Position numbers and translations under genes: made by a program
Source of the DNA: Eledone cirrhosa
Taxonomy: Eukaryota
Length of the DNA stretch: 64,000 nucleotides
Assembly (NCBI GenBank): GCA_964016885.1
Contig: OZ024742.1
Coordinates: forward strand, 241,056,001 to 241,120,000
Direction: 5' to 3'
Notes under the pieces: model-generated
The model's input: only the letters and a program-made list of their open reading frames with translations
What the model was told of the DNA's origin: nothing
Databases searched by the model: none
Part shown: piece by piece, positions 40,906-50,460 of the stretch
Layout: every line of letters starts with the position of its first letter
Numbering within the stretch: position 1 is the stretch's first letter

Positions 40906-42633
40906 CTTCTTCTTCTTCTTGGAATACTCTTGTTGGGGGTCGATACTTTCACTTGACCACATAACAAATGCAGTATTAAGAAGTGTCTAAACCAACGTCA
41001 CTTGCCTGAAGAAGCTCGAGAGTTACTAGGAGTGAATTAAATTGAACCCGGTAATTGATCGGAATTTTATTTTATCGACTCCAGAAGCATGAAAGGTTAA
41101 TTTGACATCAGCAGGATTTAAACTCAGACGTTAAAGGCCAGAGGTGGTTGTCAAACGGCCTAACGATTCTTTGATTGCATCGCTATATCGGTTTAGCGAT
41201 AAAATCTTAATCTTAACAAAAAAAATCTAGAAATGTTTTCTACAATATAAAATATCGCGCTGCATATTTTTCAGTTTGGTTTTTGCTATCGTCAGCTTAT
41301 ATTTTTTGTAATTCTGGGGTCATCAATTAGTTGGCGTTAATATATTTAGATCTTAAAAGTCTGACGATACAAAAGTGGCGATACATAGAATAGTATTTTT
41401 ACCAAAAGAAAAACGTATGGGGGAGAGAAGAAGAGAGGAAAAAAGGGAAAGAGAGCAATTGAAAGACAGTGGAGAATATCGATTTTGTGGGAGTGTGTGT
41501 TGTGAGTATATGAACGTCTGAGTGTGGGAATGTGTGAAAATGTGGATATATGAAAGTGTGTGTGAGTGTGTGTGTGTGTGTGTGAACGTGTGAGTTGAAG
41601 TGTGTGAACATATGAACATATGAATGTGTGAAAACTGTATGAACTTGTCAGTGAGTGAGTATGTAAATATGTGAACGGGCGTGTGTGTGTGAATGTGTGA
41701 AAGTCTGTGTGTGTGAGTGTCAATTCGTATGTGGGTATGCATATGAGTGTGTGAGGATATGAGGGTGTGAGTGCATGGGGAAAATGTATGTCAAGAAATG
41801 TTCATATAAAATTATATAAAATGGTGAAGCAGCATGGCCTGAAGGACAAAAATGTTCAGATAGAATAACTTGTTTACCAGTTTTAACTTGCTATCCATTT
41901 TTGTAGAAGTTGAGAGTCACAGTAATCTTTCCTGGAGCAAATCAAGACCCAATCACAGTTTATACTCAGTACAGCTTGCTATATCGAGTACATCAACACA
42001 GGTGGGATATCCAGCTTAGAATAGTTTCCATATTGATATAAATTTATAACATCAAAGTGACGAATTAAGCATAACATTTTCTGATTAAATGTGCCTCGAT
42101 TTTTCCTGGCTCTCTGCACCCTGAATTCAAATCCCACCGAGGTCAATTTCGCTTTTTAACATTCGTGGTGGATAAGTAAGCTATTTGACCAGGGCTGTGT
42201 TTTGACGAAATTGTTATATTGTCAGATGAAAGGTTATGTGGTTTCTGCTCTGGATCTTTGTGTTATGAGTTCAAATTCCTCCACTAATCACTGGTGACAA
42301 GAAACGAGATCTCCAGTACGAAGCTAATGGCGAGAGAACTCCAATATGGATAAATGCTAAAATGAAAACCTTGCACAAAGCGGGAGAAATGATAGGACAG
42401 AAAAAAAAAAGATTTATTGCATACACGATATATTGCAGAGATATATGGTTCACTAACTCATTTATTCATACACCCCTCACTCACACACACACACACATAT
42501 ATATTTATATATATATATATTATATATATATATATATATATATATTTATATATATATATATATATATTTATATATATATATATTTATATATATATATATA
42601 TATAAATATATATATATAGTTTTAATATAGATG

Positions 42634-42684
42634 AGATTCTACAGGACTAGAACTGTTTCATTCATTAGAAATCATCAGGAATCT
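42634..42684 (-). ncRNA. Complete type I hammerhead ribozyme (GUA site)
   Basis: agattc-CTGATGA-t ttc taat gaa t-GAAA-cag ttctagtc ctg-TA-gaatct; 6-bp stem I, 3-bp stem II, stem III. Confidence 0.7.
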
Positions 42685-43169
42685 GGGTATCAAAAAATAA
42701 AAATGGTATTTATAGGTCTCTACAAGTGGTAGGAGAGGGTGGGGAGTGGGATGGGTGCAGGTCATTGGTTGATAGAAAAGGGAATTCATTAAAAGCTAAT
42801 TCTACAAAGCTATAGTTTATTTTTATTTATTTATGTTTTTAGAGTAACAAGGGCAGACAGAATTCTATAAACAGGTTCCGGATGGCATACCATTCCTTGT
42901 CATTAAGTTTCTCTTAAGCTAACAGATGTCTATAAAATCAGTGGGGGGTCAGTCATGGTCGATAGAATTAAAGAAAAGGGAAATTCTTTAAAAGCTAAAA
43001 TCATTAAGGTTCTACTAAGTGACAAAGGTCTAGAGAATTCTGTAGACAGATTCAAAATACTGAGTGCATATCTTACAATTATCTTCGAACTTCTCTTAAA
43101 CTAATCAACTATATGCCAAGAATCAACAGACACATTCACAAAAAAACAAAAAACATACTCACTCACACA

Positions 43170-44525
43170 CTTACGCGCAACCATAAACACACACACAAAC
43201 ACATATACACACATAAAAACACACACACATATATATAAAAATATATTCATATACATACATATACATACACACATACATACATACATACATATATATATAT
43301 ACATATATATATATATATATATATATATATATATATATATATACATACACACACACATACACATATACACACACACACACACATATATACACATATAAAT
43401 ACACTAACACACATACATACAAACACAAATATACATGTGTATACATATACACACAAATACACATAGACATATATACATACATATACACAGATATATATAC
43501 ACACACACATATATATATATATATATATATACATACACATATATATATATATATATATATAGACATATATACATACACACACATATATATATATATAAAA
43601 ACCCACATACACACACATATATACATATACACACACATACACACAAACACACACACACATATATATACATATACATATATATATATACATTCATATATAT
43701 ATAACCATATACATATATACATATATACACATACATATATATATATATATATACACATAAACAAATATATACACATACAAACACACACACACACATACAT
43801 ACACACATATATATATATATATATATATATATATATATATATATATATATATATATATATATATATATATATATACACACACATATACACATATATAAGG
43901 AAAAAGCACCATACATACATATATATATATATATATACATGTATATATACATATATACACACACATACACACACACACACACATATATATATATATATAT
44001 ATATATATATATATATATATATACGTAAATATATACATATATATAAAAATATACACACATATACATACATACGCACACACATATATACATATATATATAT
44101 ATATATATATATATATATATATACATATATATATATATATATACACATACAAACACACATACAAACATACATATACACATACATATATATAAACATATAT
44201 ATACACATATATACACGTATGTATATACATATATATATATATATATATACATATATATATACATATATATATATATATATATATATATATACACACACAC
44301 ATATACATATTATATATACACATATACACACACATACACACACACACATATATACACATACACACACACATACATACATACATATATATATATATATATA
44401 CATACATATACACACACATATATATACACGCACACACATATATACACATATATATACACACACACACACACACACATACACATGCATATGTATAAATATT
44501 TATATATATATATATATATATATAC
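43170..44525. repeat. Compound (TA/CA)n tract
   Basis: Visible; about 43890-44520 is mirrored at about 49650-50300. Confidence 0.95.
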
Positions 44526-47380: not shown

Positions 47381-47531
47381 CATATACGCAGGCACATAAA
47401 GACACCTCTACAGGCAGAAAATGTAGATACGAAAGAGGTACTCACATAACCATAGTGGCCGTATTTCAGGTTGAGGAGGGGTGGGGGTAGGGTGGGGAGG
47501 AGGTATAGGGGCCAATAGGGGGAGGTCGTTT

Positions 47532-49120
47532 TTAGCCATCGGGCTTTAACACTGGCTTAAAGTGTTTGAAAGTTGCAAAGTTCTTGTGCATGCAGTTCGG
47601 GCAGTGTTCAGAGAGTTTGTTCAGTAGCGGGCCCTTGGCGAATAAAATTTCGTAGCTCTCTGAAATACAAAGGTCGCAGCCCTTGTGTCCTCCGTTGTAA
47701 GAGCGCGCTTCTGGAGTATTTTCCATTTAAGCGTGAAGGGGGTGGAGTTCCTTTTGAGGTCCCAAACGTAGGAGGCGAGTGTTGTCTGATTTGATTTATC
47801 CGGTCTCCTGAAGGAGTGGGTATGGGCATACCAACGGGTCTTAAAGTTGTTGGAGGTCATGCCGATGTAAGTTTTTTTGCAATCCTCGGTGCCTGAGATG
47901 ACATCGCATTTGTATACGATGTCATTTGTGAGGCATTTGTTTTCAAGTGGGCATGCTTCCTTATTTAGGCAATTACATAGAGCCCCAGTCCGGGGATTGG
48001 TTTCGGAGGTGGTTGGCTTATTTAATTTAGAATTGTGGTTGGCTATATTCCTAGCTAGGTTAGGTGTGGTGGAGTAAGACAGTCTTATAGTGTTCTTATT
48101 AAAGATGGTGTAGTACCTATGTTGTATGGGGAAGTGTAATTTCAGTAAAGTGAAGAAAATCCTAGCTATCGGAGTAGATAGCTCTCTATTGAAGGGAGGG
48201 TTGTACCAGCTAATCTGCCTATGTCTATTCCTCCTCTGCAATCTTGCGGTGGTTTCTAGGTAAGTTATCTTATCTTTAAATCCGCTACGGGCGAGGGCGT
48301 CATTGTAGTAGGAGGCAGATGCATTAAAAATATCTTTGTTGGCGGAGAGGCCAGATATTCTAATAGAGACGCTTTTTACTAGGTTATCAGTGATGTTTTG
48401 GGGGTGGTTTGAATTAACATTAATATATTTAAGGGACTCGTTAGGTTTGTGGTACGGGTAATAGAGGGAAGTATCTAGGTCGAGAGTGACATCTAAGAAG
48501 TTGGCCCTAGTCAAATTAGAATCTATAGTTATACTAAATCCTAGATTATAGAAGAAAGAGCTTAAGTTTTTCCGAAACCCATCGGTGGTTCTAGGGTTAA
48601 CCTTATGCAGGGCGAAGAGGCCGTCGTCTCGGTATAAACCTCCCGTTAGGCCGGTAAAGAGGTTCTTCAGGTTACGTAGGATGTACAGGCCCACAAGGTC
48701 GCTAATTTCAGCCGAGTCACTCGCCCCCATGCTAACGTCAAATGGGGTCTGAGATTTCTTGTTGATCCAGTAAGATCCATCGTGGTATAGAAAGGTCTTA
48801 CGAGCGTGGAGGATAACAACTTGCTCAGCATCGGTAATGGTGGTAAAATTCCTGGCAAAGTTAATTGCGTCCTTCAGGAGGGGCTCCGAGATAGAGGCAT
48901 AGTAGTTTTCTATGTCGAGTTGCAGGAAGCGAGTGTGGTGTTTATCGGGTAATTCTTGGAACCATGATATTGCCTCAGATGTTCTACTCCAGAGTGGAAG
49001 TGGTGAGGCTGCCCGCAATGATGGTAGAACTCTATCCAGGATCTTCTTACTGATAGAGCCGTTGTCAGAACGAGTGGGGTTGATAAGTCTGACTGATGGT
49101 TTGTTGAGGAAATTTCCCTT
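47532..49120 (-). CDS. Penelope-like element RT + GIY-YIG endonuclease, 5'-truncated, one frameshift near 47705
   Basis: [59 protein letters not shown] linker, IVY..YIG (GIY-YIG); the C-terminal CDLC..E..CMH lies in frame 47532-47726. Confidence 0.9.
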
Positions 49121-50460
49121 ATATATATATATATATATATATATATATATATATATAGTTGTGTGGGCAGGTGTGTATATATATATGTGTGTGTGTATTT
49201 GTATGTATATATATATATATATATATATATATATATATATATATATATATATATATATATATATATATATATATATATATATATATGTATATATATATAT
49301 ATATATGTGTATATATGTGTATATATATATATGTATATATATATATGTGTATATGTATATATGTGTATATGTATATATGTATGTGTATATATATATGTAT
49401 ATATGTGCGTGAGAGAGAGTGTGTATATATATTTGTGTGTGTGTGTGTGTATGTGTGTATGCGTGTGTGTATATATATATATATGTATATATATATATAT
49501 ATATGTATATATGTGTGTATATATGCGTTATATGTCTGTATATATATGTGTATATTTATGTATAGGTCTGTGTATGTATGTGTATGTTTGTATATATATG
49601 GATATATATATATATATATATATATATATATATATATATATATATATATATATATATATATATATATAAATATTTATACATATGCATGTGTATGTGTGTG
49701 TGTGTATATATATGTGTATATATGTGTGTGCGTGTATATATATGTGTGTGTATATGTATGTATATATATATATATATGTATGTATGTGTGTGTGTATGTG
49801 TATATATGTGTGTGTGTATGTGTGTGTATATGTGTATATATAATAGGTATATGTGTGTGTATATATATATATATATATATATATATATATATATATATGT
49901 ATATATATATGTATATATATATATATATATATATGTATATACATACGTGTATATATGTGTATATATATGTTTATATATATGTATGTGTATATGTATGTTT
50001 GTATGTGTGTTTGTATGTGTATATATATATATATATATGTATATATATATATATATATATATATATATATATATATATGTATTTATGTGTGTGTGTATGT
50101 ATGTATATGTGTGTATATTTTTATATATATGTATATATTTATGTATATATATATATATATATATATATATATATATATATATATATATGTATATATGTGT
50201 ATATGTGTGTGTGTATATATATATATATGGGTGTGTGTATATGTGTCTGTATATATATATATATATATATATGTATGTATGGTGCTTTTTCCTTATATAT
50301 GTGTATATGTGTGTGTGTGTGTATATATATATGTGTATGTATGTGTGTGTGTGTATATATGTGTATGTGTGTGTGTATGTATATATATATGTGTGTGTAT
50401 ATATATATATATATATGTATATATATATATGTATGTATGTATGTATGTGTGTATGTAATA
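49121..50460 (+). repeat. Inverted copy of the microsatellite tracts at 46545-47000 and 43890-44520
   Basis: Shared unique landmarks in mirrored order: agttgtgtgggcagg, gtgcgtgagagagag, gcgttatatgtctg, taggtctg, aaatatttatacatatgc, ggtgctttttcctt. Confidence 0.85.

What the first reader, a model, noticed from the sequence alone, without database searches (positions are those of the whole stretch)
42620..50460. Penelope element that appears to carry a multi-kb microsatellite as part of itself
Seen: on the minus strand, the RT-GIY-YIG ORF (49120-47532) runs into a short UTR, then compound TA/CA tracts (47380-43170), then a terminal segment with an intact hammerhead (42634-42684). Immediately upstream of the truncated ORF, 49121-50460 is an inverted copy of those tracts, identified by unique landmarks in mirrored order. 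Established: 5'-truncated Penelope-like elements often carry an inverted pLTR copy of their 3' region at the 5' end, and pLTRs contain hammerheads. Inference: the microsatellite lies within the transcribed pLTR and is duplicated by retrotransposition. Such elements could be vectors for the compound microsatellites that dominate this genome, not only insert into them.
Basis: partly seen in the sequence, partly recalled or inferred. Interest (0 to 1): 0.75.

Follow-up and report, generated by a model that had tools for sequence, protein, structure and literature searches.

The report
Jumping gene carrying its own target
A young Penelope-type jumping gene in this animal genome has a 1.5-3.4 kb TA/TG microsatellite built into itself at dozens of unlinked copies checked, so each jump likely plants new TA repeats of the kind it lands in, and other mobile elements (once, itself) have landed there; but this one family is estimated to supply only a small share of the genome's microsatellites.

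Summary
Confirmed, with corrections. The microsatellite is part of the element. In 34 of 38 other ORF copies, the ORF is followed by the same tract and then the hammerhead segment; 33 of 38 show at least four landmarks in order. A position-ordered sample gives 36 of 40. The landmarks occur 280-653 times genome-wide (reversed controls 0-2). Motifs fit the Hydra clade of Penelope-like elements. The unit is about 2.96 kb of unique sequence plus a tract of median 2.5 kb, ends in (TA)n at two fixed sites, and often has a 5' inversion. The carried tract receives insertions: 21 of 54 copies, one by the family itself.

Corrections: 44525-46543 is a second, nested element, not microsatellite. The window ORF has a frameshift. 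The inverted copy lacks the hammerhead segment.

Limits: Penelope elements carrying SSRs were reported in shrimp (PMC7878876). This family is estimated at 0.04-0.24% of the genome. Two other compound microsatellites in the window are not dispersed. Transcription and ribozyme activity are untested. The scan earlier noted a ~500-bp retrozyme carrying a TA tract on other DNA of this genome (e1-9528654).

The parts
42497..42618 (.). (TA)n target tract with TT interruptions at the element's 3' end
   Evidence: a tract of the same style lies beyond 51600
42619..43165 (-). Terminal unique segment of the pLTR. In full-length copies it lies directly upstream of the ORF as well (5' UTR). This copy ends at the short end, 21 nt past the predicted cleavage site; other copies carry a 68-nt tail
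42634..42684 (-). Minimal type I hammerhead motif in the Hydra-clade layout; predicted cleavage after GUA (42640); activity untested
   Evidence: core intact in 46 of 54 copies; File S2 layouts; no Rfam hit
43166..44524 (-). Carried compound TA/TG microsatellite, distal part (landmarks g-q)
44525..46543 (-). Nested 5'-truncated element of a second Penelope-like family: last 74 codons with CxxC..E..N..CxH, then a 1.8-kb UTR with (TTTTTA)n and (AAAT)n tracts and a hammerhead-like core; inserted in a TA run
46544..47379 (-). Carried compound TA/TG microsatellite, proximal part (landmarks a-f)
47380..47531 (-). Unique 3' UTR that grades into the microsatellite
47532..49120 (-). 5'-truncated RT + GIY-YIG ORF (residues 185-713 of 713), 1-nt deletion near 47709
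49121..50460 (+). Inverted partial pLTR: mirror of about 46990-43262, without the nested element and without about 43840-43370; no hammerhead segment
50461..51607 (.). Unrelated hammerhead-like repeat with its own inverted layout, abutting the outer end of the inverted pLTR; not part of this family
   Evidence: (no match in 38 other loci)

Best explanation
This is a copy of a young Penelope-like retroelement family, likely of the Hydra clade, whose repeating unit contains a 1.5-3.4 kb compound TA/TG microsatellite between the ORF's 3' UTR and the hammerhead segment, and the tract is likely copied through RNA at each jump. Shown: the order ORF, UTR, landmarked tract, hammerhead segment at unlinked loci; head-to-tail units in which that segment leads into the next ORF; (TA)n beyond two fixed 3' ends; frequent 5' truncation with inversion; and later insertions into the carried tract, one by the family itself. 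Inferred, by analogy with PAc (PMC11167929): the GIY-YIG domain nicks (TA)n. Reverse transcription starts 21 or 89 nt downstream of the hammerhead's cleavage site, on RNA not cut there. It runs through the tract into the ORF and often ends with a template switch that gives the inverted pLTR. Each copy deposits a median of 19 (TA)>=8 runs, which would act as new target sites. Slippage and deletion reshape the tract much faster than the unique parts change.
For: ORF-anchored copies: the hammerhead segment lies downstream on the same strand in 30 of 38 within 5.5 kb (hand tally) and in 4 more after extension. At least 4 exact landmarks occur in order in 33 of 38. Position-ordered C1 sample: 29 of 30 ORF ends run into the tract and 36 of 40 reach the hammerhead segment. 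Genome-wide exact counts: 280, 414, 653 and 629 for three landmarks and the ORF end, with reversed controls 0, 2, 0, 0. Tract variants co-vary with both unique flanks (Mantel r 0.60, p 0.0005 with the hammerhead segment; r 0.27, p 0.009 with the ORF; 27 copies). 3' ends in 29 loci: 12 short and 14 tailed, all into (TA)n, 1 read-through, 2 other. 5' side of 38 copies: 20 inverted, 6 full-length tandem, 12 other. Nesting: 32 non-repeat blocks in 110 kb of carried tract against 0 in 102 kb of ORF plus hammerhead segment, 21 of 54 copies. Self-insertion at L084 with the rest of the host pLTR beyond it. An insert shared by the direct and inverted pLTR at L075.
Against: 4 of 38 (L063, L075, L092, L097) and 4 of 40 copies did not reach a hammerhead segment in the DNA fetched, and L201/L171 stops at the ORF end. 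The 38 copies are the best-scoring of 1792 candidates, and two pairs share a locus. The nesting contrast is inflated: copies were chosen for unbroken ORF ends and hammerhead segments, some blocks are pieces of one insert, and only 17 of 32 passed my TA-both-sides test. Within-locus partners were each other's best match in only 5 of 9 testable cases. Pfam gives only sub-threshold GIY-YIG and no RT hit, so the RT call rests on motifs and by-eye likeness. Run lengths in long (TA)n may include assembly error. The hammerhead is not the minimum-energy fold.
Confidence: 0.88

Rival explanations
1. The element only inserts into pre-existing microsatellites, and the mirrored tract is a local inverted duplication or misassembly.
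For: The family does target (TA)n, and microsatellite regions are hard to assemble.
Against: The same ordered landmarks follow the ORF on many contigs. Landmarks of ordinary local microsatellites occur 1-2 times against 280-653. The inverted copy differs from the direct copy in run lengths and lacks the nested element. Inversions occur in 20 of 38 other copies.
Confidence: 0.02
2. The tract plus hammerhead segment is a separate non-autonomous repeat, and the ORF element inserts into it or is joined to it at DNA level (gene conversion, segmental copying).
For: The hammerhead segment has more first-look candidates than the ORF end (2895 against 1792). Tract distance tracks the hammerhead segment better than the ORF. 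Some within-locus pairs do not match best.
Against: The hammerhead segment reads straight into the ORF start in full-length copies. An excess of 3' parts is what 5' truncation gives. Flanks beyond the (TA)n differ between loci. The ORF and the hammerhead segment co-vary across the tract (r 0.31, p 0.019).
Confidence: 0.07
3. The tract is a selected functional part of the element (promoter-like, spacer, RNA-protein binding, or homology that aids priming at TA targets), not a tolerated passenger. This is compatible with the best explanation.
For: Some tract is present in every subfamily examined, down to about 89-92% ORF identity. It always reads TG/TA on the sense strand. It is longer in the densest, youngest clade (rho -0.60 between nearest-neighbour distance and length, 54 non-independent copies).
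Against: Length varies from 0.6 to 3.4 kb and landmarks turn over between subfamilies. Described Hydra consensuses are 1.1-3.0 kb with no such tract noted. Older copies may have shortened by deletion.
Confidence: 0.2

Closest known systems
Hydra clade of C-terminal EN+ Penelope-like elements, incl. Hydra-1_Obim of Octopus bimaculoides (Craig et al. 2021, PMC8557442; section 11, passages and File S1/S2 parts read)
   Same: Single RT-GIY-YIG ORF, RWK-like (RWR) and DKT motifs, CxCX5C linker, CxxC and CxH around E and N, canonical hammerhead layout, (TA)n insertion, inverted 5'-truncated copies.
   Different: The listed Hydra consensuses are 1.1-3.0 kb and their comment column notes no internal microsatellite. 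This unit is 4.7-6.0 kb, of which about 2.96 kb is unique and the rest carried tract. It is a different family from Hydra-1_Obim (different hammerhead stems; protein alike but far from identical by eye).
Penelope elements of Litopenaeus vannamei carrying SSRs (Yuan et al. 2021, PMC7878876; passages and Fig. 2 legend read, figure not seen)
   Same: Recently transposed Penelope copies (>98% identical) with syntenic internal SSRs that moved with the element and changed length afterwards; TEs proposed as SSR carriers.
   Different: In the passages read it is an example from a copy comparison, with no clade, pLTR position or target-site link given. Here the tract is multi-kb, lies in the pLTR, is made of the element's own target repeat, and is counted over dozens of loci with nested and self insertions.
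PAc (Poseidon, Anolis carolinensis; Frangieh et al. 2024, PMC11167929; parts 1-2 of 4 read)
   Same: Two fixed 3' ends with an optional tail downstream of the hammerhead; tandem pLTR-ORF-pLTR layout; AT-rich targets.
   Different: Different clade. The PAc tail is 30-40 bp inside the ORF; here it is 68 nt, upstream of the first in-frame ATG. No carried microsatellite is described in the parts read.
Chlamys elements lengthened by tandem repeats (PMC8557442, passage and one supplement row)
   Same: Penelope-like families whose length is increased by internal or 3' tandem repeats.
   Different: N-terminal EN clade of green algae; only 2 of 17 'tandem repeat' mentions in the supplement were seen, so whether any are target-type microsatellites was not checked.

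Membership tests
EN+ Penelope-like element | Single ORF with RT and C-terminal GIY-YIG endonuclease | tested here: met
   Intact 713-aa ORF in 5 copies with YRDD and VY..YIG motifs. Pfam GIY-YIG is below cut-off (E 0.0034 and 0.016) and there is no RT model hit. RT identity rests on motifs and by-eye match to Hydra proteins.
EN+ Penelope-like element | pLTR from tandem or inverted 5'-truncated arrangement | tested here: met
   6 of 38 full-length with upstream hammerhead segment; 20 of 38 with inverted 5' piece.
EN+ Penelope-like element | Hammerhead motif in the pLTR | tested here: met
   Motif at 42634-42684; core intact in 46 of 54 copies, of which 2 lack the region; layout as in File S2. 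No Rfam hit.
EN+ Penelope-like element | Hammerhead self-cleavage and retrotransposition through RNA | not testable with these tools
   Needs in vitro assay and RNA reads.
EN+ Penelope-like element | Two 3' termini (optional tail) | tested here: met
   12 short and 14 tailed ends of 29 loci.
Hydra clade | RWK motif and DKG changed to DKT | tested here: met
   RWR and DKT in the translated copies (L079 reads RWS) against the definition.
Hydra clade | CxCX5C linker; CxxC and CxH either side of conserved E and N | tested here: met
   [18 protein letters not shown].
Hydra clade | CCHH motif absent from the endonuclease | tested here: inconclusive
   By eye only: two Cys lie in the GIY-YIG core but not as CxxC, and only one of the expected His is seen.
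Hydra clade | Insertion into (TA)n | tested here: met
   26 of 29 hammerhead-anchored loci end in (TA)n.
Hydra clade | Placement in the Hydra clade of an RT tree | not tested
   Reference proteins were seen only as text in a paper supplement; no tree with them was built.

The most novel reading that the evidence does not exclude
Microsatellite-targeting Penelope-like elements manufacture their own landing sites. By carrying and lengthening a multi-kb tract of their target repeat they set up a positive feedback loop (more copies, more TA runs, more safe insertion sites for themselves and for a guild of hammerhead parasites). Summed over many families and past bursts, this loop would be a main source of the compound microsatellites in cephalopod-type genomes.
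Probability: 0.2. Interest if true: 0.75.

Novelty: new variant of a known kind. Interest (0 to 1): 0.5.

Why it matters
It is a countable case of a retroelement that spreads a multi-kb microsatellite made of its own target repeat. It comes with hundreds of near-identical copies that start from a common tract, so microsatellite mutation, growth along a lineage and re-targeting can be measured directly. It also has a practical side: repeat annotators and short-read assemblies would cut such elements at the tract and count half of each as simple repeat, so described Hydra consensuses and SSR/TE shares in such genomes may be incomplete (inference). Microsatellite markers designed in these tracts would be multi-locus.

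Tried and rejected
Rfam scan of the window: no hit. Unconstrained folding does not give the hammerhead. Two upstream hammerhead-like stretches in the terminal segment lack the core and were dropped. Pfam gave no RT hit. Sequencing-run search: no RNA holder listed; laying four runs showed the family in three of them and no joints, and contigs cannot span the tract. Landmarks matched with one mismatch were too permissive for some words, so exact recounts are used. One search used a pattern that is not in the window and is disregarded. ORF identities of L224 and L226 come from short hits and are unreliable; re-filters to 54 copies, dropping those with N, short ORF match, partial hammerhead segment or a duplicate locus. 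No covariation test was run on the hammerhead because the stems barely vary. Literature searches found no description of a Hydra-clade element with an internal multi-kb microsatellite. Subscription journals, Repbase/Dfam entries and unseen supplements (Yuan 2021 and the bioRxiv files, not read; most of Craig 2021's 59 parts) may hold one. Passages of an Octopus vulgaris repeat annotation (PMC13282606), a Penaeus fosmid paper (PMC3124438) and a retrozyme preprint (10.64898/2026.07.22.740005) did not address carriage.
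Full report
1. Observation. The window is G000:C3:241056001-241120000 of a 3.0-Gb genome. The organism was not determined; an octopus-like animal is inferred from earlier scan notes and from likeness to Hydra-1_Obim. On the minus strand, 49120-47532 matches residues 185-713 of an intact 713-aa ORF found in five other copies. 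It has a 1-nt deletion near 47709 that other copies, and contigs or reads of three other runs, do not share. A 150-bp UTR runs into TA/TG tracts (47379-46544 and 44524-43166). A unique 546-bp segment follows, with a hammerhead motif at 42634-42684, then (TA)n. The middle 2.0 kb (44525-46543) is not microsatellite. It is the 3' part of another Penelope-like element, with its own high copy number. Unique k-mers show 49121-50460 to be a mirror of about 46990-43262 that lacks the nested element and about 470 bp after landmark k. It ends before the hammerhead segment, so the nested element most likely arrived after the two copies formed.

2. Is the tract part of the element? I fetched 10 kb around 38 of the 39 other best-scoring ORF-end matches; two pairs share a locus. 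The hammerhead segment follows on the same strand in 30 of 38, and in 34 of 38 after extending the eight misses. The four left are L063 (contig ends), L075, and L092 and L097 (N gaps). At least four of nine exact landmarks occur in order in 33 of 38, and at least two in 37 of 38. To lessen the bias towards near-identical copies I took ORF ends in order along contig C1. There, 29 of 30 run into a TA/TG tract and 36 of 40 reach the hammerhead segment within 9 kb (one of these is only a 64-bp match). Anchoring on the other parts agrees: 26 of 29 hammerhead-segment loci have the last landmark upstream (one mismatch allowed), and 20 of 30 mid-tract loci have the segment's first word within 1.5 kb. 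Exact genome-wide counts are 280, 414 and 653 for three landmarks and 629 for the ORF end, with reversed controls of 0, 2, 0 and 0. Landmarks from two other compound microsatellites of the window occur 2 times and 1 time. Tract variants co-vary with the ORF and with the hammerhead segment (Mantel r 0.27 and 0.60). The tract therefore travels with the element.

3. Anatomy. In full-length copies the hammerhead segment reads directly into the ORF start, and L064 is a head-to-tail unit. The tract thus lies within the pseudo-LTR. Units measure 4.7, 5.8 and 6.0 kb in three copies, which is about 2.96 kb of unique sequence plus the tract. In 27 close copies the tract is 1449-3376 bp, median 2518, while the ORF differs by 1.0% and the terminal segment by 1.6%. 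There are two 3' ends, 21 and 89 nt past the predicted cleavage site, both opening on (TA)n (12 and 14 of 29). This is the optional-tail signature explained by two RT start sites in PAc (PMC11167929). Both ends lie downstream of the ribozyme, so the template would be uncut there, as found for PAc. At the 5' side, 20 of 38 copies have an inverted piece, 6 are full-length tandem and 12 are other. The window's inverted tract matches its own direct copy best among 54. Across loci this held in 5 of 9 testable cases.

4. The carried tract as target. Each of 54 copies holds a median of 19 (TA)>=8 runs. 21 of 54 have at least one foreign block inside the tract: 32 blocks in 110 kb against 0 in 102 kb of ORF and terminal segment. 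The contrast is inflated by how the copies were selected, and only 17 of 32 blocks passed a TA-both-sides test. The inserts include other Penelope-like families, a retrozyme-like array and short repeats. At L084 a complete copy of the same family, with its own inverted end, sits between landmarks c and d, and the host's remaining landmarks and hammerhead segment follow it. Tracts are longer in the densest clade and shorter in more distant subfamilies (rho -0.60, n 54). This fits growth along the lineage, but deletion in old copies and uneven sampling could also give it.

5. How much of the genome? About 650 young pLTR ends at about 2 kb give about 1.3 Mb. Taking all 2895 first-look candidates (not copy numbers) at 2.5 kb gives about 7 Mb. 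That is 0.04-0.24% of the genome. Alternating dinucleotide tracts fill 7.5% of the window outside the element. If the window is typical, this family supplies roughly 0.6-3% of them. The nested family carries about 0.4 kb of A/T-rich repeats, so carriage is not unique to one family, but a dominant role is not shown.

6. Comparison. The motifs meet the Hydra definition read in PMC8557442 section 11: RWR, DKT, CxCX5C, CxxC and CxH, (TA)n targets and a canonical hammerhead in the File S2 layout. Absence of CCHH is inconclusive by eye, and no tree with reference sequences was built. Listed Hydra consensuses are 1.1-3.0 kb, with no internal microsatellite noted. The idea that Penelope elements carry SSRs is in print: Yuan et al. 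2021 (PMC7878876, passages) describe >98% identical shrimp Penelope copies with syntenic SSRs that moved with the element. Seven searches found no report of a multi-kb, target-type tract inside a Hydra pLTR. Earlier scan notes on this genome describe Hydra ends and retrozymes in (TA)n, and one describes a ~500-bp retrozyme with an internal TA tract (unchecked leads). None matched this sequence.

7. Verdict. The feature is real, and the central inference is now shown at DNA level. RNA intermediacy, ribozyme activity and any function of the tract are inferred or untested. It is a new variant of a known kind. The new aspects are the size of the cargo, that it is the element's own target repeat, and the observed self- and cross-insertion. 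Interest 0.5. The bolder reading, a feedback loop that builds microsatellite-rich genomes, has probability about 0.2.

Noticed in passing
window 44525-46543; L130-L153: A second young Penelope-like family (about 39% protein identity in L096; 1089 first-look candidates) carries (TTTTTA)n tracts of variable length in its 1.8-kb UTR in 24 of 24 other copies, and (AAAT)n in 23 of 24. It also sits inside carried tracts at L075, L096 and L098.
   Followed up: partly
window 50461-51607: Non-coding repeat with an inverted 306-bp arm and a 160-bp direct repeat. By eye it holds a hammerhead-like motif with a long stem II near 51243-51315.
   Followed up: no
L085:5035-10000 (oriented) and L157: A tandem array of short (roughly 240-bp, estimated by eye) hammerhead-bearing units, retrozyme-like, with a core close to this family's, is inserted in the carried TA tract; the rest of the host pLTR follows beyond it.
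   Followed up: partly
L075:1680-1907 and 9255-9489 (oriented): The same nested fragment lies between landmarks d and e in both the inverted and the direct pLTR, which suggests that a passenger already in the tract was copied with the element.
   Followed up: no
L192-L231: More distant subfamilies carry shorter tracts with different landmarks (uninterrupted examples 728-979 bp and one of 1651 bp), while the hammerhead stays nearly invariant and changes mostly in loop II.
   Followed up: partly
L087:6545-10000 (oriented): A third Penelope-like family (44% protein identity) with A/T-rich repeats in its pLTR is nested in the carried tract.
   Followed up: no
L156:3634-9237 (oriented): A tandem array with a 465-bp period next to the L084 locus.
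   Followed up: no
window 27409-30888 (-), 7440-8561 (-), 35676-40166 (+): Broken non-LTR retrotransposon frames (RT-like and endonuclease-like, recognised from recalled motifs).
   Followed up: no
window 1940-2107: A short end fragment with a hammerhead-like core, resembling by eye the nested family's 3' end, next to a TA tract.
   Followed up: no
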